A stretch of DNA of 64,000 bases from an uncultured bacterium (GTDB lineage Bacteria; Fidelibacterota; UBA2242), in assembly GCA_964589175.1 (NCBI GenBank), contig CAZPRY010000015.1:18530-82529 (forward strand). Direction: 5' to 3'. The notes below the pieces were generated by a model. The model had not been told where the DNA came from, ran no database searches, and saw only the letters and a list, made by a program, of their open reading frames with translations. Positions 32,946-55,674 of the stretch are shown in pieces. Both the position numbers and the translations under genes were made by a program. Every line of letters starts with the position of its first letter. Position 1 is the stretch's first letter.

Positions 32946-34265
32946 ATGATAAAAGCAAATAATTCTGTTTTTACTGAAATAAGAGAATATATAAGTGGTA
33001 TTCCATTAATTGATACACATGAACATTATCTAGGGATTACTGAACCGGTAAAAAATATCTGGAATTTTATTATGTCGGGATATCACGACTCAGATATGCA
33101 ATCAGCATCGTTTGGTAATGAAATTTATTATAAAAATATATTTGATAATACATTGTCATTTGATGAACGGTATAGTGCTTTTGAAAAAATATATAAAAAA
33201 ATAAAAAATACTGCATATGTAAAAGCATTTGAAATAGGATTAAAGAGATGTTGGGATATAGATGAAATCAATCTATCAACAATAAAAGATCTTTGTACGA
33301 AATTATTATCAAGAGAACAAAATTTTTATAATGCTTTAATAGAAAAGCACAATATTTTAATTAAGATTGTAGATGTATGTGATGCAGATAAATTTGTTGA
33401 AATAATTAACGGAACAAATAAAAACTATTCTAAATATTGTAGATTTGCATTTCCACTTCCATCTTTCCATAACATACATTCTTGTCAAGATATTAAAAAA
33501 TTGGAAAAGTATAATGAAGGAATGATAATTAAATCGCTGGATGATTACATCGATAATTTTAGTGTTTTACTAAAAAAAGCAGTTGATTTTGGAATCGTAT
33601 GCCTTAAAGATCAGACCGCTTATAGACGGATAATTGATTATAATAATCCAAGTAAAACTGAAGCGGAAAGTATTTTTAATAAAATAATATCAAATCCAAG
33701 AGACATTTTTTCATCAAATGAAGTTCGACCTCTTGATGATTGGCTTTTTCATAATTTTATTAATCTTGCGAAACAGTACAAATTACCAATACAAATTCAT
33801 ACAGGCCATATGGCTGGAATAAGAAATGATATTGTAAAAGCAAATGCAGCTCATTTAATAAAAGTAATAGAACTGCACTCGGATGTAGCTTTTGATTTAT
33901 TTCATGGAAATTGGCCGTATATGGGTGAATATTTGTTTATTGGTAAGAATTATCCAAACGCTTATCTTGATTTATGTTGGGTACAAACGATTGATCCCTT
34001 GTATTCTATAGAATTAATGAAAAGAGCAATTGTAACAGTACCACATAACAAAATAATGATATTTGGTGGCGATACAAACAAAATTGAAAATACTATAGGT
34101 TACTTAGAACTTGCAAAAGATAATGTTGCTTATGCTTTAAGTGAAATGATTGAAATGGATTATTTATCAAAAAATGAAGCAGGACAAATAGCAGTAGATT
34201 GGTTTTTTAATAATCCTAATGAACTATTTAATTTGGGATTAAAAAAACTAGAAAGAAAAATCTAA
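32946..34265 (+). CDS. Amidohydrolase family protein (uronate-isomerase-like) no. 3, strongly AT-rich
   Basis: LIDTHEH, PIQIHTG, FDLFHG, NAYLD, IFGGD; the sample line 33121-33180 is 12/60 G+C. Confidence 0.85.
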   Translation: MIKANNSVFTEIREYISGIPLIDTHEHYLGITEPVKNIWNFIMSGYHDSDMQSASFGNEIYYKNIFDNTLSFDERYSAFEKIYKKIKNTAYVKAFEIGLKRCWDIDEINLSTIKDLCTKLLSREQNFYNALIEKHNILIKIVDVCDADKFVEIINGTNKNYSKYCRFAFPLPSFHNIHSCQDIKKLEKYNEGMIIKSLDDYIDNFSVLLKKAVDFGIVCLKDQTAYRRIIDYNNPSKTEAESIFNKIISNPRDIFSSNEVRPLDDWLFHNFINLAKQYKLPIQIHTGHMAGIRNDIVKANAAHLIKVIELHSDVAFDLFHGNWPYMGEYLFIGKNYPNAYLDLCWVQTIDPLYSIELMKRAIVTVPHNKIMIFGGDTNKIENTIGYLELAKDNVAYALSEMIEMDYLSKNEAGQIAVDWFFNNPNELFNLGLKKLERKI

Positions 34266-35941
34266 TGATTAATAAAATAGATATGAAAAATTCAGCGGCA
34301 ATTTCGAAATTAAGATTTTACTTCTCACGAAACCTGTCCAGTATATCGTTAAGCCGAGCAATCATTTTAATCCTGCTTATAATAGCAATAAATCTAAATT
34401 TATACGCTAAAGAACAGGATGATCATTTTGATTTTAAAAAGTATCTATTTGGAGAAATTTCGACTTTATCTGTATATATACAGGATATTAATTATACCAC
34501 TGGTGAAGTTAATATCAGCGGATCTGATTCACAATGTCCTACTACTCCATTTACGTGGGATTGGGGAGATGGAACTATTAATGATGGATTTTTCCCTAAG
34601 CAACACACTTATTCCGATTTGACCAAAATATACAGTGTCAAGGTTACTGCACATTATTTTGATGGGGGAACGGATTCAGCGGAAATAACGATTCTTTTTG
34701 TTCCTCCTACTCCTCCTATCATTACTCCGGTATCTTTATCTCCAGATATAGCGATATCAATACCTGCTTCTAAGGTTACGCTAACAAGTAGACTATATGG
34801 TATCCCGAGCGGTTTAACTTACTTTGATGATAGTTTTTTTAATATCATCCCAAGATCAACAATTGAATATGTTTTAACGGCTGCAGCATCCATTCAAAGA
34901 GATTTTGTTAATGACGATGTATATCAAATCGATGGAGGTTTTAAACAGGTTCTTTTAAGATACCCTGGATTTGGCGGAATGTGTTCACTCTGGTATACGA
35001 ATCCTGTTAGTTTTGGCGTTGGGGATTATGGATTTCAAGGAACGATCCAGTGGTCATCTTTTTTTCATGAAATGGGCCACAATTTTACTTTGAATACGCC
35101 GGCCGATTACTATTTCGGAGGAAAGATTGATGGCAACGCGAATGCGATCTATTCCGAAACAATGGCCCAGATATTTCAACATGCCACGGCTTATGAGATC
35201 ATCAACAACGCCAGTAGCTATGGTCTAGGCGAAGATATCGTTGCGGATATAAAGGAGAGTGCCATTTCTTCCATCGCAATTGTCAGGAATTTCTACGAGG
35301 ACTATTGTAATTCCGGGATGAATTTTACTTCGTGGAACGATCCTATTACAGGTAGTGATGAGACGATAAAGATTTTCATGACTATTGCCTACAAATTCTT
35401 AGAACATGCTGAAAATTCGGATTTGGAATACCGAATTCCGTTGAAAAGAATGCTGACGCTTCTACAGGGATTTAATCAAGATCTCCGAAGTAGATATGAT
35501 CAAGCTAACAATACAATCGCTACCGATTTCTTCAGAGCGACCCTCATGGTATCTGCGGTCTCGTATGCTTTTGAGACTGACTTACGGGCGGAGTTCCGGG
35601 ATTTGAATTTTCCGGTGGATGATGAGACCTATGAAGAGTTGTTGAGTACGGTGACGGACGTTAGAGAATTCGATAATCCGGTAATGTCAAATTTTGAACT
35701 GCAACAAAATTATCCGAATCCTTTCAATCCAACGACTTCAATCGATTTTTCCATTGAAACCGGCAAAAAAGGAGTTCTTTCCGTTTTCAATATCAATGGA
35801 CAAATACTTGAGGTATGCAGATTTGATGAAGGAAATCACAGATTTTACTGGGATGGTTCAAAGTATGCCTCCGGAATTTATTTTTATAAATTGGAATCGG
35901 ATAATCGTTATGAAGTCAGAAAGATGTTAATGATATGGTGA
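34265..35941 (+). CDS. Secreted PKD + gluzincin-like HExxH protein with T9SS-type CTD; close paralog of 31526-32860
   Basis: WDWGDG...QHTY, FFHEMGHN...SETMAQ, DLRAEFRDLNFPVD, QNYPNPFNP...SGIYFYKL...RKMLMIW. Confidence 0.8.
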   Translation: MINKIDMKNSAAISKLRFYFSRNLSSISLSRAIILILLIIAINLNLYAKEQDDHFDFKKYLFGEISTLSVYIQDINYTTGEVNISGSDSQCPTTPFTWDWGDGTINDGFFPKQHTYSDLTKIYSVKVTAHYFDGGTDSAEITILFVPPTPPIITPVSLSPDIAISIPASKVTLTSRLYGIPSGLTYFDDSFFNIIPRSTIEYVLTAAASIQRDFVNDDVYQIDGGFKQVLLRYPGFGGMCSLWYTNPVSFGVGDYGFQGTIQWSSFFHEMGHNFTLNTPADYYFGGKIDGNANAIYSETMAQIFQHATAYEIINNASSYGLGEDIVADIKESAISSIAIVRNFYEDYCNSGMNFTSWNDPITGSDETIKIFMTIAYKFLEHAENSDLEYRIPLKRMLTLLQGFNQDLRSRYDQANNTIATDFFRATLMVSAVSYAFETDLRAEFRDLNFPVDDETYEELLSTVTDVREFDNPVMSNFELQQNYPNPFNPTTSIDFSIETGKKGVLSVFNINGQILEVCRFDEGNHRFYWDGSKYASGIYFYKLESDNRYEVRKMLMIW

Positions 35942-45058: not shown

Positions 45059-45969
45059 GGCTTACAATTGAAAATGATTTTTATGTGACGCTGGATGTCG
45101 GCGGAAGTTTTGTAAAGGCCGCCCTGTTAAGCAGCGAATATGAAGTAGTCGCAGGCTCGTTTTCAAATACGCCGATCGATACAAGCGGGCCCTCAAAACA
45201 GGTAATCGATACGATAATTGCTGTGATTGCGGAAAAATTCCGGATAGTGAAAGCATTCGGGGAAGTCAAGGCAATCGGGCTCTGTTTCCCGGAATTCTCC
45301 GACTACAGCAAGGGTACAATCGCGATGATGAAGGATAAGTTTCAACAATGCTGCGGAATCGTGCTGAGGGACGAAATCATCAACGGATTGAGATTATCCC
45401 CTGATTTTCAGATTGTATTCGAAGAGGATTCGCTCGCCTTTATGAGAGGAGCGCTAAGACGGGGGAAGGCTGAAGCCTATGACCGGATCATCGGCCTTAC
45501 GCTTGGTACGGGCCTCGGGTCGGCCTTCATGGAAAAGGGAAAAATAATACGGAACGCTCCGGGCGTCCCGCCGGATGGCGAACTTGGCTGTCTTCCGTTA
45601 AAAGGTGGAATCATTGAAGACATCATCTCCATCAAAGGCATACTCCGGATTTACAGGGGAATTAGCAGAAAGCCGGAGAATGATGTAAAAACTATCGCTC
45701 TTCAGGCGCAAAAAGGGGATGCCGCTGCAATGCGAAGCTTCGACGAATTCGGAAAAACGATGGGGCAAATACTCAAAAAATACGTCGAAGACTTCAGGGC
45801 TGAGTGCATCATTTTGGGCGGCCAGATTGCCAAAAGCTTTGAACTTTTCGCGACGCCGTTGAGGAGCGAGTTGTCGGGCGTCGTCTCGCTTCAGGAAATC
45901 GTTCCGGCTGCATCGATTAATTTCAGTTCATTTTACGGTTTACTCAGCATGATAAAAGACGTACGATAA
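45055..45969 (+). CDS. ROK family sugar kinase
   Basis: LDVGGSFVKA, EDSLAF..G, LTLGTGLGSAF, GELG, IILGGQIA; GTGA overlap with the upstream gene. Confidence 0.9.
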   Translation: MRLTIENDFYVTLDVGGSFVKAALLSSEYEVVAGSFSNTPIDTSGPSKQVIDTIIAVIAEKFRIVKAFGEVKAIGLCFPEFSDYSKGTIAMMKDKFQQCCGIVLRDEIINGLRLSPDFQIVFEEDSLAFMRGALRRGKAEAYDRIIGLTLGTGLGSAFMEKGKIIRNAPGVPPDGELGCLPLKGGIIEDIISIKGILRIYRGISRKPENDVKTIALQAQKGDAAAMRSFDEFGKTMGQILKKYVEDFRAECIILGGQIAKSFELFATPLRSELSGVVSLQEIVPAASINFSSFYGLLSMIKDVR

Positions 45970-46020
45970 GGTACGCCCAAAGAGAACAGTGTTCATTTCA
46001 GTATCCTTTGGCGGCGGTTT

Positions 46021-46154
46021 CAGCTAACGTTCGGAACTATATGCAGTACGGGATTTCGGAGCAGTTTCCTATCGAGTTACACGATACTACTTGCGAGAAC
46101 CGCATTACGAATACAGATGCAACCCGTATTGACATATAGTTTTTGTTATGCCCA
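46021..46154 (-). mobile_element. attC-like integron recombination site (attC-2)
   Basis: Minus strand: TGGGCATAAC (inverse core, 46154-46145) ... GTTAGCTG (core, 46028-46021). Inner arms AACTATATG-CAGTACGGG (46035-52) and CCCGTATTGACATATAGTT (46123-41) pair with one extra base and one mismatch; about 130 bp; begins about 11 bp after the stop of 46165-46686. Confidence 0.75.
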
Positions 46155-46164
46155 GGCTTTTTTT

Positions 46165-46686
46165 TCAATGCCATCTATAATCTGTATCTTTTAAAGGGTC
46201 AATATTTTTAAAATCATTAAAATCTTTGTATTTGTTATTCTCCCACCAATCATAATAGGCTTTTGCAGCAATTGCATGAGATACACTATCTGTGACTAAA
46301 TCTAATTCATCAGAATCTCGGAGTGCCAATATTGGATTTTGAGAAGGAAATCTCATTATCAAGTATTCGCTATTAATTGATAATGCTCGAATCGATTCAA
46401 TAGTCCATAAAACATACATCCCTAATTTGCATTCAGGTGCATATAATGATGAAATAGGATTATGAGGAAAATTAGTAATAATTTGAGTTTCATTTCTATA
46501 CTGGAGCAAGACAGGGATGTCACTATAAGTAAATGACGGAAGATTTAATGAATCATATTGACTTGATTTTAATAACTCGATATAAGTCGGGACATCAAGA
46601 TTAATTGTTTCATCATTGTCTTTTTTATCACAACCTATCAAGCCGATCAAAGAAGTCAGAAAGATTAAAAATTTCAACGTTTTCAT
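46165..46686 (-). CDS. Lipoprotein, DUF4943-like; single-gene cassette
   Basis: Lipobox LIG-C, RBS AAGGAG; P.F...DIP.LL...FP.NPISS....C.LG...LWTIESIR pattern recalled from Bacteroidetes DUF4943 proteins. Confidence 0.6.
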   Translation of the reverse strand: MKTLKFLIFLTSLIGLIGCDKKDNDETINLDVPTYIELLKSSQYDSLNLPSFTYSDIPVLLQYRNETQIITNFPHNPISSLYAPECKLGMYVLWTIESIRALSINSEYLIMRFPSQNPILALRDSDELDLVTDSVSHAIAAKAYYDWWENNKYKDFNDFKNIDPLKDTDYRWH

Positions 46687-46757
46687 ATTTTACTCCTTAC
46701 GATTACAAAGCCTTTATAGGATGCTCAAAATGTCAATTGGTTGCGTTTTTTAAGCTT

Positions 46758-46892
46758 GGGCATAACGGTTGGCGGTATGAAATCGTTGGGGATTGCGGGC
46801 TACTTTCCCGTCCACGACGACTGAAGTTTGAGCGGTGCAGAATGCTTGAATTACCACTGAAACCCTTATTGCATATAGCCTTTGTTACCTGC
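46758..46892 (-). mobile_element. attC-like integron recombination site (attC-1)
   Basis: Minus strand: GCAGGTAAC (46892-46884) ... GTTATGCCC (46766-46758), 135 bp, with imperfect inner arms (GGCTATATGCAAT vs ATTTCATACCGCC). Confidence 0.7.
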
Positions 46893-46965
46893 TGGTTTTA
46901 ATTCTTTTTAATCTAAAAGTAGGGGAGTTCATTTATCTCATTTAATAGTAATACTATTTTCCACA

Positions 46966-48198
46966 TTACAACATATTATGCCGCTTAATTATATCCGTTG
47001 TTACAACATCAATGTTGCCATTAGTCACTGTAATATAACCATCAATGGTACCAAAAATACCGTCAACATCCCCGTAATCAGTTCTTAAAAACATTATTGA
47101 CTCATTATTTCTCTGATTCATTAAATCTCTGATTGCTCTCCATTCCAAACCACACCACTCTTTTACATTATATTTACTGCATAGACAAACAACTATTAAA
47201 TCAGACTCATCATGATAAAGTTTTTGTAAATGTGTATCTAAATTTGGTCTTGCAAATTCTGCACTATGAAATTCATCATATAGAATTTCATCTTTAGGAA
47301 AATGTGTTGTTAATTTGTTAGCAATCCCTTTAATAATTTTCCTGTATTCGCCGGGAAACGACAATGCAACTCTAAATCGTTTTTGTTTATTTTTCATTTT
47401 TGTATTTAATAAATTATCTATTTGATTTGCAATGTTTTTTACATTTGATTGCAAGTTTCTAAAACTCTTTGCTGATTCTTCGTATTTTATTTGACAATTA
47501 CCAGCCGTCTCACAGTTCTTTGTATCTATAAGTAGTTGTGAAAAAACTCTTTGTAAATTGTTTTTTTGTTCTTCTATTTTAGATTTTAATGATGATATTT
47601 CTCTTTTATCTTTCAGATTCAAATTGCCATCTCTACTCTTTTTATTCAAGACATCTAACAATTTATCGCATAAAGCAGTTAATGTGTCTTTTTCTTTGTT
47701 AGCATTATCTAAAATTTTACCTCTCTCTTTTATTCTTTCAAATCGTTTGAGTTCGTCTTCAACATTAATTTTAACACCCATTTCCGCTTGAAGAGGCTCT
47801 GAGGTTTCAACATCAAATACTCTAAAACAATGAGTGTATAAAGTTTTAATACCATGCCCAAAACAATCTTTGTCTTCTGCCAAGTTGTGCATATGTTGCC
47901 CAGTAGTAATAATAGTTTCGCAATCTTCTATCGCATCTTCTTTTTCATATTGAGCAACAAATTCATCGACAAAATCTTTGCCTAAAACTTGTTCTTTTTT
48001 TCTATCATATACTGTTTCACATTTGCCTTCCCATAATTTTATTTTGCGATTTTTAGCACATGCCCAAATTGTAAAAGGGGCTTCGTCTAAAAATGCTAAC
48101 TTCATTCTGTCTTCATAACTGACTGCCCTCTGACTGATTAAATTTATTATGTATTCAATCAGTTCTTTTTTACTCATTTTATTATAGTCTATATCCAT
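46966..48198 (-). CDS. PAS domain - coiled coil - TIR domain protein
   Basis: N-terminal PAS-like segment (FLDEAPFTIWAC...LWEGKCETVYDRKKEQVLGKDF), heptad-rich middle, C-terminal TIR (VALSFPGE, LYDEF, LDTHLQKLY, VVCLCSKYNVKEWCGLEW with the conserved Glu). Confidence 0.8.
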   Translation of the reverse strand: MDIDYNKMSKKELIEYIINLISQRAVSYEDRMKLAFLDEAPFTIWACAKNRKIKLWEGKCETVYDRKKEQVLGKDFVDEFVAQYEKEDAIEDCETIITTGQHMHNLAEDKDCFGHGIKTLYTHCFRVFDVETSEPLQAEMGVKINVEDELKRFERIKERGKILDNANKEKDTLTALCDKLLDVLNKKSRDGNLNLKDKREISSLKSKIEEQKNNLQRVFSQLLIDTKNCETAGNCQIKYEESAKSFRNLQSNVKNIANQIDNLLNTKMKNKQKRFRVALSFPGEYRKIIKGIANKLTTHFPKDEILYDEFHSAEFARPNLDTHLQKLYHDESDLIVVCLCSKYNVKEWCGLEWRAIRDLMNQRNNESIMFLRTDYGDVDGIFGTIDGYITVTNGNIDVVTTDIIKRHNML

Positions 48199-48217
48199 AA
48201 TAAATAAACTTTATACG

Positions 48218-49000
48218 TTACTCTTGAATTGTACGCCCCGATTCTCTCATAAATGTATAATCAACACAGTTAAAACCACCGTCAATTATATAGGTTGTAC
48301 CTGTTATAAAGGATGCTTTTTCGGAAGCCAAGAAACTCACTAATTCTGCTATTTCCTTCGGTTCTGCAAACCTGCCTAATGGAGTGAGTTGTGGGGCAAT
48401 TTTCCATGAAATTTCAGGTATCATATTGACATCTGTTTTAACCCAGCCGGGTGCTATTGCAACAACCCTGATATGCTTTTCATCATAACCAAAATTGATA
48501 GCCAAACTTTGCGTAGCATTTATTAACGCTGCCTTACTTGCCGCATAGGACATACTCGAAAACGAGCCTTTCAGCCCATCTGTACTTGCAATATTGATAA
48601 TTACTCCATTATCAATGAGCGAGTTTTTTAATCCTGTACTTATAGCGAAAGGTGCTGTTACATTTACGGAAAAAATGGTATCCCATATTGCCATGTCGTA
48701 ATTGTTGTAATCTTCGCCATCAGGGAAAGTACCAGCATTATTGACGATTAAACTGAAGGTTTCCTTTTTCATTTCGTCAATAAAAGCCATAAGCAGTTCT
48801 CTGTCGGTAAAATCGGCTTTGTGCATTTTGTACTTATTCGGATACAATTTTGCGAAATCTTTTTCACACAGATTTTCCGAATTATAAACTGCGTGAACGA
48901 AATAGCCTTCCGAAAGTAAATGCTTACAGATTGCAAAACCAATTCCGGTTGTTCTCGAAACACCGGTAACTAATGCTGTTTTTTTTACTTTTTGACTCAT
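48218..49000 (-). CDS. Short-chain dehydrogenase/reductase (FabG-like)
   Basis: VTGVSRTTGIG, VNNAG, INIAS, YAASK, APGW, GRFAEP.EIA..V.FLAS. Confidence 0.93.
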   Translation of the reverse strand: MSQKVKKTALVTGVSRTTGIGFAICKHLLSEGYFVHAVYNSENLCEKDFAKLYPNKYKMHKADFTDRELLMAFIDEMKKETFSLIVNNAGTFPDGEDYNNYDMAIWDTIFSVNVTAPFAISTGLKNSLIDNGVIINIASTDGLKGSFSSMSYAASKAALINATQSLAINFGYDEKHIRVVAIAPGWVKTDVNMIPEISWKIAPQLTPLGRFAEPKEIAELVSFLASEKASFITGTTYIIDGGFNCVDYTFMRESGRTIQE

Positions 49001-49007
49001 AATATAA

Positions 49008-50156
49008 TCATTTAAAATTATTTACAGGAACTTGTTGCAATATACAATGAACACCACCACCGCCTAAAAGTAATTCGCGTGACGGTATTGGTATAATTTT
49101 TCTGCCTTTAAAAACAGAGGCAAATATTTTGTATGCGTTTTCGTCATATTCCAATGTTATTTTGTCTTCGGCAGAAGCAAACGAAGGAATTAGAACTGCA
49201 CCATTACAAACATAAGAGTTCATGTATGAAGCTGGAAGTCTATCGCCAGGCAATCTTGGAATTGCATATTCAGAAGAATCTACTCCGATATGTTCTTCTT
49301 CTGTTGTACACTGAACAGGAGGTTGCGAAACTTTAATCACATTATATTTCTCGCCAAAAGCATTTTTAGCATTCACTAAAATTATGTATGCCTCAAGCGA
49401 AATATCATATTGAGGGTCTGTTTCATCATCGCACCAATTCATAAGAATTGTTTTTGAATCTGCAAAACAGCACATATTGTCAATATGTCCGTTGTTTTCC
49501 TCTATATATAAACCACGTTCCAACCAAATGAAATTTGTTACACCCAAATATTTGGTAAAAATTACTTCAATTTCTTGCAAAGAAAGATTGTTATTTCGCT
49601 TTAAAATACACTCTTTTGTTGCAATTAATGTTCCTTTGCCATCCACTTGAATTGCTCCTCCCTCCAAAACCAAAGGACAGCGGTAACGGTTAGCTTTCTC
49701 AATTTCCAAAACTTTTCTTGCAACCATATCATCTAATTTCCATGGAAAATAGGAGCCTGTTAATTCCCACGGATTTATATTGCTATTGCGCCCAATTCCG
49801 CCCCATGCATTAAAGTGCCAATCAACACCTCGTAGTTCTTTTTTATCATTTACGACAAAAGTTGGTCCTGTATCTCTAATCCAAGCATCGTCATACGAAA
49901 TTTCAACAACTCTGATACTTGGGTTTAATCTATTTCGTGAATTTTCATATTGGGATTGCGTAACTCCCACTACAACATCTTCATAATTAGCAATAGCATT
50001 CGCTATTTCAGCAAATATTTTTTGTGCGGGTTTGGCACCCAATCGCCAAATATCATTTCTTTCGGGCCACAGCATCCAAGTCGCTGAATGTTGTTCAAAC
50101 TCGGCGGGCATAAAGAAACCTTCAACATGAGGATATTTATCAATAATAGTCATCAT
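49008..50156 (-). CDS. aguA: Agmatine deiminase / peptidyl-arginine deiminase family protein
   Basis: MPAEFE.H..TWMLWP, DAWIRDTGP, LEGG, GHIDN, ASYMN, GGGVHCILQQVP with the catalytic Cys. Confidence 0.9.
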   Translation of the reverse strand: MMTIIDKYPHVEGFFMPAEFEQHSATWMLWPERNDIWRLGAKPAQKIFAEIANAIANYEDVVVGVTQSQYENSRNRLNPSIRVVEISYDDAWIRDTGPTFVVNDKKELRGVDWHFNAWGGIGRNSNINPWELTGSYFPWKLDDMVARKVLEIEKANRYRCPLVLEGGAIQVDGKGTLIATKECILKRNNNLSLQEIEVIFTKYLGVTNFIWLERGLYIEENNGHIDNMCCFADSKTILMNWCDDETDPQYDISLEAYIILVNAKNAFGEKYNVIKVSQPPVQCTTEEEHIGVDSSEYAIPRLPGDRLPASYMNSYVCNGAVLIPSFASAEDKITLEYDENAYKIFASVFKGRKIIPIPSRELLLGGGGVHCILQQVPVNNFK

Positions 50157-50659
50157 AAAATATTGTTTTTAATTTTTTCTTTCAAATATGTTGCAAAATA
50201 CTCAAAATATTTTTCTTGTATTTCTTTTAATTTCCAATCTCTTCCGGTTATAACTTTCCGACAATTAGTTGCCCCACAAGTACATCCAAAGGAATAATCT
50301 TCATTATCTAAAAAGGCGTAATCAATTGTAAGTTCGTCATCAATTTCAATGTCAAGTATGGCAACAAATGTAATTTCCCCTCTAATTCCACAGTTAGGAT
50401 TACATGAATGATTTACATATAGTTTAATCTTATCTTCTTCTTCAGCATTAGTGGCACCTAAATAATATGTATCATCAATAGGGTGATAACTATTGATAAC
50501 TCCAGAAGAAAATATTTGCTCTCTTTTAAGAATGTGTCCACCTTTTATAAACACTATTTCCCCTTTTTGAAAAGACTCTTTTGCAAACATTCCTTTTTTA
50601 TGAGTGCTACTTTCGCGAATTTCAACTTTGTCCGATAATATTGATTTTACCATATCCAA
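50153..50659 (-). CDS. SET-domain methyltransferase with post-SET zinc motif
   Basis: KGMFAK, NHSCNPN, ELTIDY, CTCGATNCR. Confidence 0.93.
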   Translation of the reverse strand: MDMVKSILSDKVEIRESSTHKKGMFAKESFQKGEIVFIKGGHILKREQIFSSGVINSYHPIDDTYYLGATNAEEEDKIKLYVNHSCNPNCGIRGEITFVAILDIEIDDELTIDYAFLDNEDYSFGCTCGATNCRKVITGRDWKLKEIQEKYFEYFATYLKEKIKNNIL

Positions 50660-50667
50660 AATAAATT

Positions 50668-51786
50668 TTATGGGTGCATATAATCAAATTTTTCAGACGC
50701 TCCAAGTTCTTTATACAAAGTCCGTATTGCTTTGCATGCAATCGGTATTTGTCCATCTAATTTACCTGTTTCGTTCATTACTTCACCAAGACAATATCCG
50801 CTACAATGCAATTTGGCAACACAAGTTTTACAATGAGCGATATTATCTACATTGCGGCTTTGCAATGCTTTAATCTTTTCTGGATAATATTCAAATTGCT
50901 TTGTCTGTTCGTCCCATTTGCCATAAATAAAACAATCCATGTGATTTGCATTTGCTCCAAGTACCACCAAATCACAGGCAGAAACATAACCATCGGGCGT
51001 TAAATGCGGAACAGGGGTACAGGAACGACAATTTATTTTTGCTTCGCCGTCGAAATTACAAGTCAGAAAACTACCGTAAAACACGCCTGTCTGTTTAGCG
51101 TATCGGTGTGCCTCAACAAAGTTTTGAATGTATGTGCCCATGTCAAAATGAAAGTTTGCAAGTTTTTCCTTGTCATCGCAAACGGGAATTTTATCCACAG
51201 CAGGAAATTCGGGGTCTGTCCAAATATATTTTATTCCTAAACTGTTAAAATAATCAACCATTTCTTTTTGTCGGCGTATGTTTAAGTCGGTCATCGTAAC
51301 CCTTACACCTACCATTAAATTATGCTTATCCCGATTGACAAACAACCATTTTATATTTTCTTCGATTTTGGGTGCGGAAGGTTTTTTGTGTGGGAAAGGT
51401 CGTTGTGTATTTTGAATATCGGGCGTTCCGTCAAACGACACCCATACGATATTTATGTTGTCCAAAATCCATTTCAGAACTCTCGGACTGAAAGCGCCGT
51501 TTGTTTGAAGTTCTGCCGTAACTTCGTTTCCGCCCTTTTGTCGGGCATAGTCGGTTATTTGCCGCATTAGGTCAAATTCTTGCGTTGGCTCACCAGGTCC
51601 GTAAAAACGGATATGCCTGCTTTTATTTTTAGCAAAATATTCATCTATCCCCGCCTTTGCAATTTCCAAAGGCAGAGACTTTTCTTCAAGTTCGCCTCTT
51701 TCCTTGCTGTTATAGCAATATATACAACGCAAATTGCATTTCGTTGTCAGAAAGAATGAAATCATTTGTTTATTGCAATGCGGCAT
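50668..51786 (-). CDS. Radical SAM protein with SPASM domain
   Basis: CNLRCIYC, GPGEPT, QTNG, VSFDG; C-terminal CRSC...ACD...CKTCVAKLHCSGYC...C auxiliary-cluster cysteines. Confidence 0.93.
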   Translation of the reverse strand: MPHCNKQMISFFLTTKCNLRCIYCYNSKERGELEEKSLPLEIAKAGIDEYFAKNKSRHIRFYGPGEPTQEFDLMRQITDYARQKGGNEVTAELQTNGAFSPRVLKWILDNINIVWVSFDGTPDIQNTQRPFPHKKPSAPKIEENIKWLFVNRDKHNLMVGVRVTMTDLNIRRQKEMVDYFNSLGIKYIWTDPEFPAVDKIPVCDDKEKLANFHFDMGTYIQNFVEAHRYAKQTGVFYGSFLTCNFDGEAKINCRSCTPVPHLTPDGYVSACDLVVLGANANHMDCFIYGKWDEQTKQFEYYPEKIKALQSRNVDNIAHCKTCVAKLHCSGYCLGEVMNETGKLDGQIPIACKAIRTLYKELGASEKFDYMHP

Positions 51787-51910
51787 AATTTTATCGTTTT
51801 TTCATAATATTTCTTCATTGGAGTCGTTATATATCCCTGTTACTTCCCAATTTTTTAGATAATAAAAACATTTTATTTCTTTTATATTGCTTTGGTTCTT
51901 TGTTAAACTT

Positions 51911-51928
51911 GCAGGTAACCATTGGCTA
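51911..51928 (-). mobile_element. Cassette 5' core site / possible attI-like or secondary insertion site
   Basis: Minus strand TAGCCAATG-GTTACCTGC. The 9-mer GTTACCTGC is the exact complement of the inverse core of attC-1; no partner inverse core is seen within 140 bp upstream. Confidence 0.55.
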
Positions 51929-51939
51929 AACGCATTTCG

Positions 51940-52019
51940 TACCCGCCTGACCCCCGACTGGTCGGGGCGGGCAGGTATCCTTCCAATTTGGCACGATATA
52001 CGTCCCGAAATTTCGGGAC
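51940..52019. repeat. Two GC-rich palindromic elements (REP-like)
   Basis: CCCCGAC-tg-GTCGGGG inside TACCCGCCTGA...GGGCAGGTA (51940-51977) and the perfect 18-bp palindrome GTCCCGAAATTTCGGGAC (52002-52019). Confidence 0.6.
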
Positions 52020-52211
52020 ATTTATTTTTCTTATGGATGATGCCTTGCCGCATCGATGGGATTGACAATCTTTCCCAATTTTTGTTTGCTGAAAGGGGTC
52101 TATATTTCAGTCGCATTTCCTGCCGAACTGTCTCGAAAAAGGCAAACTGTAAAACGCTTACGTCCAAGCCCTGGCTTTTCACTGGGTCAACATCCTTGTA
52201 CATTTGTCTGA

Positions 52212-52319: not shown

Positions 52320-52520
52320 CTTAATGTACACATAAACGCATTGCAGTTCGCCCTGGCGGCTGCCGCTTTTTGTCATTGCTTTGACAGCTTCCCTTATGGG
52401 CCTTATAGACCCGACTATAGAATCCGGCGGCGCATAGGCGTAATCCGCCGGTAAATCTCTGGGAGTAAGTGTAACATGGTCGGCCGGAGAGCCCGGCCCG
52501 CCGCAACCAAGGAGGATATC

Positions 52521-53207
52521 ATGCCCGGCAATTTCAAGTTCTCTTACAAAGTGGTTGAAATGCTCATCGGTGCGCGCGCCCTGTGCGACATTTTCGGGGA
52601 GAACAGGGAACCGCTCGTCGCCGCACGCAGCACCTGGGTAGACCCGTTCATCGATAATTACCGCACCCGCATCGACACCGCCATGGAGCAATATCTGGGG
52701 CACGACTTCCGGAAACGGCTGCGTGACGTCTCCCTGGAAGTCCGCACTATCATGGGCCTCGTCCTTCCCAAACTCGCGCTCTTCAAGAGCCAGATCGAAT
52801 ACGATTATAGCGGCGCAGCCCTGAAAAACCTGCTGGATTCCCTGGGATATTCCCGTTTCTACAAATCCGTACAGAACAAGAACCAGGAAGCGACAATCCA
52901 GATGCTCTACCAGTTCAGACAGAATATGACCGATGAACTGAAGGCCGAACTGGTCGCCAAAGGCATGGCCGCCGACCTGATCGATGGTATTATCAGCCAG
53001 ATCGATGCGCTCAAAGAGGCCGATACTCTCCAGGAAAGCCTGAAAGCCTCCGGCAGCGGATTCCCCCGGGAAGCAGTGGACGAATTCAACGCTATTTACA
53101 AGGAGGCCATCGGCATCTGTAAAATCGCCCGCCAGGTCTTCCGGGCCAATCCCGAAAAACGGGCCCTTTTCACCTTTTCCCGGCTGGTCAAGCGGATGAG
53201 CGCCTGA
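52521..53207 (+). CDS. Hypothetical all-alpha protein
   Basis: Strong RBS AAGGAGG 5 nt before ATG 52521; GC-rich, coding-like codon usage; no recognisable catalytic motif and no tyrosine-recombinase R-H-R-Y pattern. Confidence 0.8.
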   Translation: MPGNFKFSYKVVEMLIGARALCDIFGENREPLVAARSTWVDPFIDNYRTRIDTAMEQYLGHDFRKRLRDVSLEVRTIMGLVLPKLALFKSQIEYDYSGAALKNLLDSLGYSRFYKSVQNKNQEATIQMLYQFRQNMTDELKAELVAKGMAADLIDGIISQIDALKEADTLQESLKASGSGFPREAVDEFNAIYKEAIGICKIARQVFRANPEKRALFTFSRLVKRMSA

Positions 53208-53300
53208 ACCGTTAGCCTTTATGTGGGCCGGACACCGGTTTCCGGCCAAAGGAAGGACATTCCGGGACCCGCTTACGAATTTTGCTAAACGGGATAGGGA

Positions 53301-53495
53301 TTCCGGCGACTCAGATTCTCATTCCGGAACTTAGATATGTTTTCCGGTAACTTGGCTGTGGATTCCGGAATATGGAAACGGATTTCGGTAACTTAGATAT
53401 GCTTTCCGGCAACCTGGATAGCGATTCCGGAACATGGAAATGCTTTCCGGCAATTCAGGTGTGGATTCCGAAACCCGGACGCCCATTTCGAAAGC
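53301..53495. repeat. Degenerate tandem repeat, 20-21 bp period, about 9-10 units, core TTCCGG(N)AAC
   Basis: Core G positions at 53305, 53326, 53346, 53367, 53387, 53408, 53429, 53449, 53470; linkers partly recur (TTAGATATG twice, ATGGAAA twice, GTGGA twice). Confidence 0.8.
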
Positions 53496-53557
53496 AAAGA
53501 AGCCGGTTCCGGGCATCGCAGACTGAAGTTTAAAAACCGGACCAAAGTGAATTTCGA

Positions 53558-53700
53558 TCAATTTTTGTACAAATTAGCCTTCCTGTAATTGTATCTAAAC
53601 TCCAGTTCTTTGAGGTACGAATAAAAGTGATTTCTGCTAACTTCATGACAACTTCTTAAATGGTCTAAACACATTGATAATGAGCAACTTTCGGTAATGC
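53558..53700 (-). pseudogene. IS1595-family (ISXO2-like) transposase C-terminal relic
   Basis: HEVSRNHFYSYLKELEFRYNYR matches the family's C-terminal HGVS..H...YL.E..FRYN.R motif; the upstream part is degenerate. Confidence 0.7.
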
Positions 53701-54560
53701 TCAAAATGTCAGGGTTGGTGCAGAAATTGAGTGTTTTGAATAGCAAGGTACCGGAAAGCGGGTGACTATTAGGGGGAATAATAAATGGGATTACGTAGAG
53801 AGCATATATAGCAAAGCAGTTCTTTACAAGGAATCTAAGGAGTGCCCTTTAGCATATCGAATCTTTTTAGAAGACTATTTTTTCGTTCTATAGTATAGTC
53901 TTAAATGCGTTTGCACATATAAAGATTCAATGGCTGAGCCTATCAAGGTAATTGCTGATCCTTTAGCAAAGCGCAGGTGTCCCTGCTGCATGAGCAATAG
54001 ATGGAAATGGATTGAGACTGGTCATCGTCATTACTTTCGATTTTCTGGACCACGGCGTATAAGGCGATCTTGATACCATCCTGGTACGATTAATGTAGCA
54101 AAATCGCATGTTTTCTGATAGCCCCTGAATGTCATCCCGGCAGATAAACAATTTTAGGCCGATCGAGGTTTTTTCCGAATGGCAATCGTCAATAATAATC
54201 AGCCAATAAAAGAGAAAAATCCCAATCTTATCGGGTACAATTGCGACAAGTATTCTTATTAATATCGTTTAAAAATAGTATTTGCGAGTGCTTGGAGCAG
54301 TGCTATTAGTGTATCTGCAGGTTGCGATTGATAGGCTAATATGATATCTGTCTTATTCGCTGTGACCGTAGTTGCTGAACATATCCCGAGGAACATAGGT
54401 TGCGGAATATTGCTTAAAAAATTATCGTCTTATTGCCGAGCCAGAAGACAAACCAGATGAATTGCTTAACATGTTGTAATATATGGGGAAATAGCATTTG
54501 ATTCTATTAGATCCAGACCTTTTAAGACGGGAAAAACCAGAAATAAAATGCCATTTGTAC

Positions 54561-54663: not shown

Positions 54664-55674
54664 ATGAAAAGTTCGCAGGTAACCATTAAAGATATTGCCG
54701 AAAAGCTGGGTATCTCAGCTTCGACGGTATCAAGAGCGTTGCGAGACCATCCCGATATCAGCCTTTCTACGAAAAAAATCGTCCACTCAGTCGCGGAAGA
54801 GCTGGATTATCATCCGGATTCTATCGCCCAGAGCTTAAAGCACCGAAAAACGAACCTGATTGGCGTCATCGTTCCCGAAATCAAACATAATTTTTTCTCG
54901 GCCGCGATCAGCGGAATTGAAGATGTTGCCTATAGCGCCGGTTACGCGATCATCGTGTCTCAATCAAACGAAAGTTATGAAAGAGAGTGTCTGAATATCA
55001 GTGCTTTAATATCGAATCGCGTTGCCGGATTACTCATCTCAATCTCAGAAACAACCACAAACGACGATCAATTCCGGCTTTTGGAACGTCAGGGAATCCC
55101 CTTTGTTTTTTTCGATCGGGTTTGCGAAAATATTGATTCTAGCAAAGTTGTTGTGGATGATTTCGGTGGAGCGTTTAAGGCCGTTGAGTACCTGATACTG
55201 TCAGGATACAAAAGAATCGCTCATTTCGCAGGCCCGAAACATTTATCCATCAGTCAACAACGGCTTGAAGGTTATCGGGCCGCTCTGAAAAAACACAAGA
55301 TTCCGTTCGATGGCCGGCTTGTCATCTACAGTGGGTTGAACGAAGAAGACGGGTACACCAGCTTTTCCCAACTTCTTGAGTTAGATCAACTGCCGGATGC
55401 CCTTTTCGCCGTTAACGATCCGGTTGCCATCGGGGCATTTGAAAATATCAGAAAACACGGCTTGAAAATCCCTGAAAATATTGCACTCGTTGGTTTTTCC
55501 AATAATCCCGTTTCCGAATTAATTGAACCTGCCCTGACCACCATAGAACAGTCCCCTTATCAGGTAGGGAAAATAGCGGCTCAGTTATTGATCGAACAGA
55601 TCAGCAATCCTGAAAATTTTATACCAAGGAAAGAGATACTAAGAACCGAACTGATTATTCGTGATTCTACGTAA
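54664..55674 (+). CDS. LacI family transcriptional regulator
   Basis: VTIKDIAEKLGISASTVSRAL HTH, IGVIVPE, FVFFDR, RIAHFAG, PDALFAVND, LVGFS, LTTIEQ, LIIRDS. Start set at ATG 54664. Confidence 0.96.
   Translation: MKSSQVTIKDIAEKLGISASTVSRALRDHPDISLSTKKIVHSVAEELDYHPDSIAQSLKHRKTNLIGVIVPEIKHNFFSAAISGIEDVAYSAGYAIIVSQSNESYERECLNISALISNRVAGLLISISETTTNDDQFRLLERQGIPFVFFDRVCENIDSSKVVVDDFGGAFKAVEYLILSGYKRIAHFAGPKHLSISQQRLEGYRAALKKHKIPFDGRLVIYSGLNEEDGYTSFSQLLELDQLPDALFAVNDPVAIGAFENIRKHGLKIPENIALVGFSNNPVSELIEPALTTIEQSPYQVGKIAAQLLIEQISNPENFIPRKEILRTELIIRDST

What the first reader, a model, noticed from the sequence alone, without database searches (positions are those of the whole stretch)
46021..51919. 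Integrase-less integron-type cassette array containing a giant 5.15-kb, five-gene cassette
Seen (minus strand): cassette A starts at GTTACCTGC (51919-11) and its attC opens with the exact complement GCAGGTAAC (46892-84). Cassette B starts at GTTATGCCCA (46766-57) and its attC opens with TGGGCATAAC (46154-45). Both sites are about 130-135 bp, attC-2 has paired arms with an extrahelical base, all genes are co-oriented and AT-rich, and the array sits between two GC-richer sugar loci. Established: complementarity between a cassette's leading core and its own inverse core is the signature of IntI-mobilised cassettes, which are usually single genes under about 1 kb; attC clusters without intI are CALINs. 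Inference: a whole enzymatic operon moves as one excisable circle.
Basis: partly seen in the sequence, partly recalled or inferred. Interest (0 to 1): 0.82.

Follow-up and report, generated by a model that had tools for sequence, protein, structure and literature searches.

The report
Bacteroidota integron-like gene cassette array
Two mobile gene cassettes, one of them a 5.15-kb five-gene operon, sit in a Bacteroidota chromosome between folded ~125-nt recombination sites of a widespread family, and elsewhere arrays of this family start next to a Xer-like recombinase rather than a classical integron integrase.

Summary
On the minus strand, cassette A (51918-46766, 5,153 nt, five tightly packed genes) and cassette B (46765-46028, 738 nt, one lipoprotein gene) each end in a ~125-nt repeat (attC1, attC2). 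Each begins with the reverse complement of the bases that open its own repeat.

The repeats belong to a large metagenomic family. Its 17-bp stem covaries at 15 of 17 pairs. In 72 of 92 adjacent site pairs all six bases after GTT are complementary to the next site's start, against 1.6% in controls. Identical cassettes occur between different neighbours. The same five-gene operon (78% nt identity) is one 5.65-kb cassette in an unrelated array, and its two ends have changed together.

Cassettes of 5-9 kb make up about 10% of this family, so "giant" is not exceptional here. There is no recombinase in the window. Elsewhere the arrays start about 100-130 bp after a XerA/XerD-like tyrosine recombinase that lacks the IntI-specific domain. 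That architecture matches the rAID-1 systems of Bacteroidales, whose mechanism is undescribed in the papers I could read.

attC1 is chimeric and pairs poorly, and the array is identical in all 15 contigs, so present-day mobility is unproven. Verdict: a real, integron-like system and a new variant of a known kind.

The parts
51911..51919 (-). Left recombination core of cassette A, GTTACCTGC. The cassette is taken to start at TT, 51918.
   Evidence: Read. It is the reverse complement of 46892-46884, fits the family's cassette-start consensus and lies at the GC step. The match alone is not significant.
46766..51918 (-). Cassette A: 5,153 nt, five genes plus attC1.
   Evidence: no internal site; homologous single cassette in L151/L152.
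50668..51786 (-). Radical SAM/SPASM-type enzyme, 372 aa.
   Evidence: Pfam PF04055, E=1e-11. Weak matches to SPASM peptide maturases, far below their cut-offs. At least 820 homologues, the top 120 at 61% identity or more.
50153..50659 (-). SET-domain protein (168 aa from the TTG start; 166 aa from ATG 50653, as called in the metagenome contigs).
   Evidence: PF00856, E=4e-14; gene calls.
49008..50156 (-). Agmatine deiminase family (PAD_porph), 382 aa.
   Evidence: PF04371, E=1e-105. TIGR03380 scores 451.8 bits, above its cut-off of 381.8.
48218..49000 (-). Short-chain dehydrogenase/reductase, 260 aa.
   Evidence: PF13561 and PF00106.
46966..48198 (-). 410-aa protein with an unassigned N-terminal part and a C-terminal TIR domain.
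   Evidence: PF13676 TIR_2 on residues 277-377, 27.8 bits against a cut-off of 28. The homologues in L149 and L151 also carry TIR_2.
46763..46892 (-). attC1. The extended R'' is 46892-46884 and the model match is 46887-46763. It is chimeric: the 5' arm is of the family-consensus type and the 3' arm is of the L151 type.
   Evidence: 93.3 bits, with 8-9 of the 17 L-stem pairs non-canonical. Poor fold. Comparison with the L151 attC.
46028..46765 (-). Cassette B: 738 nt, one gene plus attC2.
   Evidence: 6 of 6 core complementarity.
46165..46686 (-). DUF4943 lipoprotein, 173 aa, with a signal peptide and lipobox Cys.
   Evidence: PF16301, E=7e-42; sequence.
46025..46154 (-). attC2. The extended R'' is 46154-46145 and the model match is 46148-46025. 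The stem is well paired with one bulged base.
   Evidence: 78.9 bits; bottom-strand fold z=-3.1.
51920..52000 (-). Left flank 'up0': a ~75-nt GC-rich imperfect hairpin that ends at the cassette A core. It is not a family attC (no AAC R'') and not the family's attI-like motif.
   Evidence: No model hit at E<=10. Folds have z=-0.25 and -0.79. Manual analysis. No similarity in any locus.
52002..52029 (+). Terminator-like hairpin plus T run on the plus strand, just outside the array.
   Evidence: This is a consensus match only.

Best explanation
The region is a two-cassette array, with no recombinase nearby, of a Bacteroidota-type integron-like system.

Each cassette is a promoter-distal unit that runs from G|TT to the next G|TT and carries its own ~125-nt recombination site at its 3' end. 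That site is used as a folded single strand. It has:
- an R box, formed by AAC plus about 6 cassette-specific bases pairing with GTT plus the first about 6 bases of the same cassette; this pairing is only possible in the excised circle;
- an asymmetric unpaired spacer;
- a 17-20-bp L stem with a conserved A.C (top strand) = G.T (bottom strand) position;
- a central part of about 70 nt that is conserved in sequence.

A tyrosine recombinase exchanges strands at the invariant GTT. Recombination between two sites excises a cassette as a circle. Cassettes are inserted at a conserved junction, (A)GATAAGNNA|GTTA, about 100-130 bp downstream of the recombinase gene.

Shown: the site family, the structural covariation, the end-to-end complementarity, the movement of identical cassettes between contexts, and the five-gene operon as one cassette in two unrelated arrays.

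Inferred: that the adjacent XerA/XerD-like recombinase, which lacks the IntI-specific domain, is the enzyme; that the bottom strand is the substrate; and that the window's array arose by insertion at a secondary GTT site between the ROK kinase gene and a terminator-like hairpin, and is now sedentary.

The cargo of cassette A (radical SAM/SPASM, SET, agmatine deiminase, SDR and a TIR protein) is a conserved horizontally spread module. I guess at about 0.4 that it is a defence or stress system. Cassette B encodes a small lipoprotein of the size of an orphan immunity protein.
For: Site family:
- A 19-base pattern taken from attC1/attC2 hit at least 120 metagenome contigs (sequences).
- The model R1 finds 2-7 co-oriented sites per contig.

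Structure:
- 15 of 17 L-stem pairs show compensatory changes.
- 91.7% of cells are paired, against 71% in shuffles and 30-41% in slid controls; 0 of 500 shuffles reach the observed value.
- The A/C position is conserved in 33 of 35 sites, and the bottom strand is more stable in 25 of 35 (p=2e-4).

Cassette signature:
- 72 of 92 adjacent pairs have 6 of 6 complementary bases, and 78 of 92 have at least 5 of 6. Controls give 1.6% and 5.9% (earlier version).

Mobility:
- A 2,389-nt DUF262 cassette is 99.8-99.9% identical in four contigs with four different left and four different right neighbours, with breakpoints at the GTT.

The operon as one unit:
- L151/L152 were found through the rSAM protein, not through the repeat. 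They carry rSAM-SET-PAD-SDR-TIR at 78% nt identity as a 5,652-nt cassette between family sites, with different neighbours.
- Its ends are GTTGTATGC...GCATACAAC; the window's are GTTACCTGC...GCAGGTAAC.
- There is no internal site, and gene gaps are at most 19 nt.

Not vertically inherited here:
- Relatives with 84%, 64% and 63% ROK identity keep the upstream synteny but carry other co-oriented genes after ROK. Homology to the window stops at 45953-45998.

Recombinase:
- Homologues adjoin array starts in L036, L118, L126, L103, L042, L068 and L149.
- Of four loci chosen from the protein side, all three that could be assessed (L155 with 7 sites, L157, L159) show the same junction and signature.
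- These proteins score at or near the NF040815 cut-off, score below the integron-integrase model TIGR02249, and match it in two stretches.
- Against VchIntIA (2A3V) the alignment skips IntI residues 202-243.
- All nine aligned members lack an insertion between KGxKDR and HxLRH.

Large cassettes:
- Nine verified cassettes measure 4.9-9.0 kb. One is a complete type I restriction-modification system.
Against: - No recombinase of this or the IntI type is in the 64-kb window, and the rest of the genome could not be examined.
- attC1 is a chimera with 8-9 of 17 stem pairs broken and no significant fold.
- The left junction has neither an attC nor the attI-like motif, and its 9-nt core match is at chance level on its own.
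- All 15 contigs that carry these genes, from more than 10 samples, show the identical arrangement at 99.7-100% identity. No circle junction or alternative context was seen.
- The link between recombinase and array rests on adjacency only.
- The strand preference is modest (-18.4 against -17.1 kcal/mol).
- The family-consensus site has no extrahelical base, unlike canonical attC.
- IntegronFinder could not be run.
- Homology to the rAID-1 recombinase of Bacteroides fragilis could not be tested.
Confidence: 0.8

Rival explanations
1. It is an ordinary integron remnant (a CALIN). The sites are canonical attC sites served by a true IntI encoded elsewhere in the genome, and the neighbouring Xer-like recombinases in related loci are bystanders.
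For: The sites have the attC plan: AAC...GTT, an imperfect palindrome, a length of about 125 nt, and structure conserved more than sequence. The cassette-end complementarity is the integron hallmark. Integrons and IntI genes have been reported in the Bacteroidetes/Chlorobi group (PMC9024848, PMC2426708).
Against: No IntI-type protein was seen in about 150 related loci. The only recurrent recombinase is the XerA-like family. Its position is fixed: its stop codon, then about 100-130 bp, then a conserved junction, then cassette 1, in at least 8 independent loci. The family-consensus site lacks the extrahelical bases that the IntI domain reads.
Confidence: 0.12
2. The ~125-nt elements are non-recombinational intergenic repeats (REP/MITE-like elements or terminators), and the core complementarity is coincidental.
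For: They are palindromic, lie downstream of genes, and have a central part conserved in sequence. Rfam has no matching family.
Against: 78% of adjacent pairs have a perfect 6-nt match, against 1.6% in controls. Identical cassettes sit between different neighbours with breaks exactly at the GTT. Homologous cassettes show compensatory end changes. There are no target-site duplications. The sites are linked to a recombinase and a conserved junction.
Confidence: 0.03
3. The array, or the chimeric attC1, is an assembly artefact produced by joining contigs at a repeat.
For: The central ~100 nt of the repeat is nearly identical between copies. One contig starts inside attC1 (L009, at 46859).
Against: The same junctions were assembled in 15 contigs from ENA and JGI samples. 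The same chimera type occurs with other cassettes (L024/L074).
Confidence: 0.02

Closest known systems
Integrons, including sedentary chromosomal integrons and CALINs (IntI / attI / attC)
   Same: Co-oriented cassettes each end in a folded imperfect palindrome with invariant AAC...GTT. The cassette start is complementary to the start of its own site. Identical cassettes are shuffled between arrays. In complete relatives a recombinase gene and a simple insertion junction sit at the array head. Cargo is rich in restriction-modification and other defence genes, as reported for Vibrio chromosomal integrons (10.1101/2024.07.02.601686).
   Different: The associated recombinase lacks the IntI-specific additional domain, which the literature treats as defining and necessary (Messier & Roy 2001, as cited in PMC9668308 and PMC2426708). 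It is usually co-oriented with the cassettes. The R box extends to about 9-10 bp and has two conserved mismatches. The spacer is asymmetric (2-3 nt against 5-8 nt). The family-consensus site has no extrahelical base but a conserved A.C/G.T position. The central part is conserved in sequence. About 10% of cassettes are 5-9 kb multi-gene units.
rAID-1 (recombinase-associated acquired interbacterial defence) clusters of gut Bacteroidales (Ross et al. 2019, bioRxiv 10.1101/471110)
   Same: [quoted passage not shown] The host phylum is the same. Complete relatives of the window's array (L155, L157, L159, L126) have exactly this layout.
   Different: rAID-1 was defined in gut Bacteroidales by orphan T6SS immunity genes of 100-300 codons. 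The papers I could read describe no attC-like fold, core complementarity or cassette boundaries, and a 2025 preprint calls the mechanism of rAID biogenesis unknown (10.1101/2025.05.03.651265). The loci here come from lakes, sediments, digesters and sludge, and carry restriction-modification systems, helicases and operons of up to 9 kb. Sequence homology of the recombinases to BF9343_RS08045 was not testable.
Vibrio cholerae repeats (VCR) of the superintegron
   Same: A ~125-nt attC family that is highly conserved in sequence within a lineage and separates hundreds of cassettes (my own knowledge).
   Different: VCRs are served by VchIntIA, which reads extrahelical bases through its extra domain (PDB 2A3V, hit). 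The family here spans many metagenomes and hosts.
Xer-dependent mobile modules (IMEX, and pdif modules of Acinetobacter plasmids)
   Same: Xer-type tyrosine recombinases move discrete DNA modules (my own knowledge).
   Different: Those use double-stranded dif-like 28-bp sites and host XerC/D. Here the sites are 125-nt folded palindromes whose ends pair across the cassette, which points to a single-stranded substrate.

Membership tests
Integron in the strict sense | An adjacent intI that encodes a tyrosine recombinase with the IntI-specific additional domain | tested here: not met
   There is no tyrosine recombinase in the window (tblastn; family HMM at E<=10). In 11 related loci the array-head recombinase scores 162-220 bits on TIGR02249 (cut-off 265), matches it in two stretches, and lacks IntI residues 202-243 of 2A3V.
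Integron in the strict sense | attC sites: imperfect palindromes R''-L''...L'-R' with conserved AAC/GTT, maintained as structure | tested here: met
   15 of 17 L pairs covary and 91.7% of cells are paired. AAC occurs in 200 of 202 model hits and GTT in 189 of 200. Both window sites score E<=5e-15.
Integron in the strict sense | The cassette start is complementary to the inverse core of its own attC, with crossover at G|TT | tested here: met
   Window cassette B matches at 6 of 6 positions and cassette A at 6 of 6 (9-nt core). Across the family 72 of 92 pairs match fully, against 1.6% in controls. Breakpoints of identical cassettes lie at the GTT.
Integron in the strict sense | Extrahelical bases on the '' arm that set strand choice | tested here: inconclusive
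   attC2 has one bulged base on the L'' arm. Most family members have none, but 33 of 35 keep an A.C (top) / G.T (bottom) position.
Integron in the strict sense | An attI insertion site next to the integrase at the array head | tested here: not met
   The window's left junction ...GCCAATG|GTTACCTGC follows a GC-rich hairpin and does not match the (A)GATAAGNNA|GTTA junction seen in L155, L157, L159, L126, L103 and L068.
[quoted passage not shown] | At least 2 attC sites detected by the IntegronFinder covariance model, with no intI nearby | not testable with these tools
   IntegronFinder and its attC model are not available. With my own family model the window has two sites 739 nt apart and no recombinase.
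rAID-1 (Ross et al. 2019) | A 5' XerD-like recombinase more than 44% identical to BF9343_RS08045 | not testable with these tools
   The reference sequence is not in any collection I could query. The window has no recombinase. Relatives carry a 5' XerD/XerA-like recombinase.
rAID-1 (Ross et al. 2019) | At least 2 co-directional downstream genes with GC <=41% and repetitive intergenic motifs | tested here: met
   There are six co-oriented genes, GC is 30-39%, and there are two homologous intergenic repeats.
MITE / REP-type repeat | Terminal inverted repeats with a target-site duplication, inserted independently of gene boundaries | tested here: not met
   The flanks are not duplicated. Each flank is instead complementary to the far end of the adjoining cassette. 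All sites are co-oriented with the genes.

The most novel reading that the evidence does not exclude
Bacteroidota carry a second, very widespread lineage of integron-like gene-capture systems, of which gut rAID-1 would be one branch. In it a XerA/XerD-like recombinase without the IntI extra domain recombines folded single-stranded attC-type sites. Strand and register would be set by an extended R box, an asymmetric spacer and a conserved G.T position instead of extrahelical bases. The system routinely captures whole multi-gene systems of 5-9 kb, including type I restriction-modification systems and the rSAM-SET-AguA-SDR-TIR module, which may itself be an undescribed defence system.
Probability: 0.5. 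Interest if true: 0.85.

Novelty: new variant of a known kind. Interest (0 to 1): 0.72.

Why it matters
Integrons are defined, and searched for, through IntI's extra domain. Surveys built on that definition report few integrons in Bacteroidota (one complete integron among Bacteroidetes in PMC9024848).

If these arrays are served by a recombinase without that domain, three things follow:
- A major gene-capture system of a dominant environmental and gut phylum is invisible to the standard tools.
- The undefined mechanism of rAID biogenesis gets a concrete, testable model, with explicit sites, crossover point and junction.
- The supposed need for extrahelical-base reading in single-strand attC recombination can be tested against a natural alternative.

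The data also show that cassettes can be whole operons or defence systems of up to 9 kb. They flag a conserved five-gene rSAM/TIR module that has spread across phyla.

Tried and rejected
- The single genome-contig scan, run with the ROK protein, returned only a 31% Paenibacillus hit, so the host genome and an empty site were not found.
- Rfam at E<=1 gave only a chance miRNA hit.
- PADLOC gave only weak radical-SAM (pVip) matches and nothing for the other cargo genes.
- tblastn of the cassette proteins against the 120 repeat-bearing contigs found no second copy of either cassette. The second copy came later, from the protein search.
- 'up0' (51920-52000) was tested as a third attC or an attI. 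It has no model hit, no AAC R'', no significant fold and no relative in any locus, so this was rejected.
- A second 6-of-7 partner for attC1 at 54683 was considered as the start of cassette A. It was rejected because it lies inside the LacI gene and fits the start consensus poorly.
- The idea that the L' of one repeat pairs with the L'' of the next was rejected for the window (reading).
- The low-GC block at 33-36 kb was considered as a second island and rejected, because it is conserved in relatives.
- L072 and L106 recombinases were checked as possible IntI genes. They are generic tyrosine recombinases.
- Eight literature searches found no description of this site family or of the five-gene module.

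Full report
**1. What is in the window.**

The coordinates below are on the minus strand.

| Feature | Coordinates | Note |
|---|---|---|
| Left core GTTACCTGC | 51919-51911 | start of cassette A |
| Radical SAM/SPASM gene | 51786-50668 | |
| SET-domain gene | 50659-50153 | |
| Agmatine-deiminase-family gene | 50156-49008 | |
| SDR gene | 49000-48218 | |
| 410-aa gene ending in a TIR domain | 48198-46966 | |
| Repeat attC1 | 46892-46763 | opens with GCAGGTAAC |
| GTTATGCCCA | 46766-46757 | start of cassette B |
| DUF4943 lipoprotein gene | 46686-46165 | |
| Repeat attC2 | 46154-46025 | opens with TGGGCATAAC |

- The five genes of cassette A are separated by gaps of 8, -4, 7 and 19 nt.
- With the integron convention (crossover at G|TT), cassette A is 5,153 nt and cassette B is 738 nt.
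- GC is 30-39% across the array and 42-50% on both sides.
- The flanks are a mannoside-utilisation locus (GH38, GH130, GH172/DUF2961, MFS transporter, ROK kinase, LacI) with two proteins sorted by the type IX secretion system. I therefore take the host to be a member of the Bacteroidota.

**2. The two repeats are homologous and belong to a large family.**

- attC1 and attC2 align along their whole length.
About a hundred of these carry a nearly identical ~124-nt element, TAAC-AAAGGCTATATGCAATAAGGG...CCCTTACTGCATATAGCC-TCAACC-GTTA. The sequence is variable immediately outside TAAC and GTTA.
- A profile, and then a covariance model (R1, built from 35 diverse copies), found 2-7 co-oriented copies per contig. 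Many of these are strongly diverged in sequence.

**3. The family is maintained as a structure.**

- In the 35-sequence alignment the arms next to TAAC and GTTA form a 17-pair stem, and 15 of its pairs show compensatory double changes.
- 91.7% of cells are paired, against 71% after shuffling and 30-41% when the partner is slid by 1-3 columns. There are 143 doubly changed cells against 45 in shuffles. None of 500 shuffles reaches the observed value.
- One position inside the stem is A opposite C in 33 of 35 sites. That is a mismatch on the coding (top) strand and a G.T wobble on the bottom strand.
- The bottom strand is the more stable in 25 of 35 sites (Wilcoxon p=2e-4).
- The spacer between the AAC/GTT box and the stem is asymmetric: 2-3 nt on the 5' side and 5-8 nt on the 3' side.
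- The central ~70 nt is conserved in sequence, and no conserved pairing was found there.

**4. The integron signature holds across the family.**

- I took all 92 adjacent co-oriented site pairs defined by the model. In 72 of them the six bases after the GTT of site n are fully complementary to the six bases before the xAAC of site n+1. In 78 of them at least five of six match.
- Pairs drawn from different contigs give 1.6% and 5.9%. A first version with profile hits gave 17 of 25 against 2.2%.
- This complementarity joins the two ends of one cassette, so it can be read only in the excised circular form. That argues for a folded single-stranded substrate, as in integrons.
- The cassette start has a further consensus, GTT R NNNN (C/T) A A, with A at position 11 in 94% of starts. 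Opposite it lies ...ACCAG NNNN TAAC, which leaves two conserved mismatches at the outer end of the R box.

**5. Cassettes move.**

- A 2,389-nt cassette that encodes a DUF262 protein is 99.8-99.9% identical in four contigs.
- It has four unrelated left neighbours and four unrelated right neighbours, and the breaks fall exactly at the GTT.
- Nine contigs share its attC, each followed by a different downstream cassette start.

**6. The five-gene operon is one cassette.**

- Model R1, run with filters off, finds no site inside cassette A, and the gene gaps leave no room for one.
- The radical SAM protein has at least 820 homologues. The closest ones lie in contigs L151/L152 from two other metagenomes.
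- Those contigs carry the same five genes in the same order at 78% nt identity over 4.8 kb. The operon lies between family sites as a single 5,652-nt cassette, with different neighbours: a DUF2971 cassette upstream and two other cassettes downstream.
- The ends in L151 are GTTGTATGC...GCATACAAC; in the window they are GTTACCTGC...GCAGGTAAC. Both ends have changed, and they have stayed complementary.
- This is the strongest single argument that selection acts on the circle formed by the entire operon.
- Large cassettes are not rare here. The median of 78 verified cassettes is 1.2 kb, but nine are 4.9-9.0 kb.
  - One 7.5-kb cassette holds a complete type I restriction-modification system (HsdM, HsdS, HsdR) plus a Schlafen-like gene.
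  - One 9.0-kb cassette holds a 1,351-aa SF1-type helicase protein with two further genes.

**7. The array is not ancestral at this position.**

- The three closest ROK homologues that could be placed on contigs (84%, 64% and 63% aa identity) keep the upstream order MFS transporter, 607/581-aa protein, ROK.
- Downstream they carry other co-oriented genes: Aminotran_5 or Amidohydro_2. Nucleotide homology to the window stops at 45953-45998, just before attC2 ends at 46025.
- No empty site with the window's right-hand partner was found.
- Within the source population the array is fixed. Fifteen contigs from more than ten samples match the window at 99.7-100% with the same arrangement. One contig carries a 1-nt indel that splits the TIR gene.

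**8. Weak points in the window.**

- attC1 is a chimera.
  - Its first ~100 nt are of the family-consensus type.
  - Its last ~25 nt (CCCCAACGATTTCATACCGCC) are the 3' arm of the attC that the homologous cassette carries in L151. There that arm pairs with GCGGTATAAAACATTGGGG.
  - As a result 8-9 of attC1's 17 stem pairs are non-canonical, and the fold is no better than shuffled sequence.
  - Similar chimeras occur elsewhere (L024/L074, L044, L048, L052). I attribute them to homologous recombination within the conserved central part; this is inference.
- The left junction is atypical.
  - Cassette A follows a ~75-nt GC-rich hairpin that has no AAC box, no model hit and no relative in any locus.
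  - Its 9-nt core match is at chance level by itself.
  - A plus-strand terminator-like hairpin lies just beyond it.
  - A plausible reading is insertion at a secondary GTT site between the ROK gene and its terminator region. Such off-site insertion has been shown for IntI (10.1101/2022.09.11.507474). For this window it remains inference.

**9. The recombinase.**

- There is none in the window. tblastn with four family members, and a family HMM against all six-frame ORFs, gave nothing.
- Among the repeat-bearing contigs the only recurrent recombinase is one family of 283-375-aa tyrosine recombinases, plus a 623-aa form with a duplicated N-terminal part.
- It lies at the array head. It is co-oriented in L126, L103 (a pseudogene) and L042, upstream and co-oriented in L036 and L118, inside the array in L149, and divergent and next to a tRNA gene in L068.
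- The first cassette starts about 100-130 bp after its stop codon at a conserved junction. Examples: GCAGATAAGTAA|GTTATGCG, GTAGATAAGCGA|GTTATAGC, TATATAAGTAA|GTTAGTAG and GGGAATAAGCAA|GTTAGGCG.
- As an independent test I started from the protein.
  - The family has at least 7,877 members at E<=1e-40. Source names include 'site-specific tyrosine recombinase/integron integrase [Bacteroidia bacterium]'.
  - I chose four members only for their long contigs. In each, the recombinase sits at the border between housekeeping genes and a run of small co-oriented genes.
  - L155 has seven family sites downstream, and L159 has two. L157 has sites that the model missed but that show the stem and the end complementarity. 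In L161 the contig ends too early to judge.
- These proteins score 188-232 bits on NF040815 (XerA/'integron integrase', cut-off 220). They score only 162-220 bits on the integron-integrase model TIGR02249 (cut-off 265), and always in two stretches that break at model position ~178.
- Their best solved relatives are archaeal XerA (5HXY, 4A8E).
- Against VchIntIA (2A3V) the alignment jumps from IntI residue 201 to 244 while the query advances by two residues. The skipped region is, from my own knowledge of the 2A3V structure, the IntI-specific domain that contacts the extrahelical bases.
- All nine aligned members have the same short spacing between KGxKDR and HxLRH.

**10. Relation to what is known.**

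- The sites and the cassette logic are those of integrons.
- The defining integrase feature is absent, so I do not file this as an integron in the strict sense. The literature treats the extra domain as defining and necessary (PMC9668308, PMC2426708). Surveys built on it report few integrons in Bacteroidetes (PMC9024848).
- The overall layout matches the rAID-1 clusters that Ross et al. found in 226 of 423 Bacteroidales genomes and described as 'reminiscent of integrons': a 5' XerD-like recombinase, co-directional low-GC genes, a motif after the stop codon and repetitive intergenic motifs (10.1101/471110).
[quoted passage not shown] It does not mention attC, cassettes or hairpins (10.1101/2025.05.03.651265).
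- I could not test sequence homology to the B. fragilis recombinase.
- My reading is that the window holds a recombinase-less outpost of an environmental branch of the same kind of system. The site anatomy worked out here is the missing mechanistic description. Because I could only search open literature, an existing description elsewhere cannot be excluded.

**11. Cargo.**

- The agmatine-deiminase-family protein passes the TIGR03380 cut-off.
- The radical SAM enzyme resembles SPASM peptide maturases only weakly.
- SET, SDR and TIR are domain-level calls.
- PADLOC knows no such system, and the literature search found none.
- The module is conserved and mobile.
  - A variant, rSAM-SDR-x-GNAT-TIR-x, sits in an array with a group II intron and a family recombinase on a 6.2-Mb contig (L149).
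  - Another variant, rSAM-x-x-SDR-PAD-SET, sits in a Firmicute mobile element among toxin-antitoxin, caspase-like and primase genes (L153).
- A defence or stress function is my best guess (about 0.4). It is not shown.
- The DUF4943 lipoprotein has the size and location expected of an orphan immunity protein. This is speculation prompted by rAID.

**12. Verdict.**

- It needs correcting on three points: the enzyme is probably not IntI, a cassette of this size is not unusual in this family, and the present-day competence of attC1 is doubtful.

Noticed in passing
window 53260-53520: A tandem array of ~20/41/62-nt units built on TTCCGGAA-like motifs. It lies between an unassignable 243-aa ORF (52476-53207, plus strand, 50% GC, no Pfam, NCBIfam or PADLOC hit) and a possible IS1595 transposase C-terminal fragment (53558-53746, minus strand; PF12762 E=0.0078, below its cut-off).
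   Followed up: partly
window 52002-52029 (+) and 51920-52000: A terminator-like hairpin with a T run on the plus strand, preceded by a GC-rich hairpin, directly outside cassette A. Together they look like the 3' end region of the ROK operon, separated from it by the inserted array.
   Followed up: partly
L007:173-1404 (= window 48198-46966): In one metagenome the TIR gene carries a 1-nt indel that splits it into 319 + 42 aa, while the rest of the locus is 99.97% identical.
   Followed up: no
L057, L075, L105, L121 (DUF262 cassette, 2,389 nt): The same cassette is 99.8-99.9% identical in four arrays with different neighbours on both sides. L114 holds an 82%-identical variant.
   Followed up: yes
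L024:12406-12530, L074:2959-3083, L044:7267-7390, L048:468-591, L052:10367-10490: Further chimeric sites, with the family-consensus 5' arm joined to a non-matching 3' arm. This suggests frequent homologous exchange within the conserved centre of the repeat.
   Followed up: partly
L149:4680-9608: On a 6.2-Mb contig the array holds a 623-aa recombinase of the same family with a duplicated N-terminal part, followed by a group II intron reverse transcriptase just upstream of the rSAM-module cassette. From my own knowledge, group II introns are known to target attC sites in integrons.
   Followed up: no
L130:1581-1699 and L085:2042-2162: The repeat is truncated at about position 100 by an element that begins ...AATAGGTTTACA(A/C)AAAA..TGTAAA. 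In L130 a family recombinase gene lies convergent to it. This may be a second element that targets the site.
   Followed up: no
L068:14233-14330: A stretch that reads like a tRNA gene (not checked with the tRNA tool) lies directly beside the divergent recombinase at the head of this array. A complete type I restriction-modification system is one 7.5-kb cassette in the same array.
   Followed up: partly
window 32946-35941: The lowest-GC stretch of the window (28-32%) encodes an amidohydrolase-like protein and a T9SS-sorted protein. Both are conserved in relatives (L141), so this is not an island.
   Followed up: yes
L153:8230-13558: A Firmicute (Anaerosporobacter) mobile element carries a rearranged version of the module (rSAM-x-x-SDR-PAD-SET) with 68% rSAM identity. 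This shows spread of the cargo across phyla.
   Followed up: no
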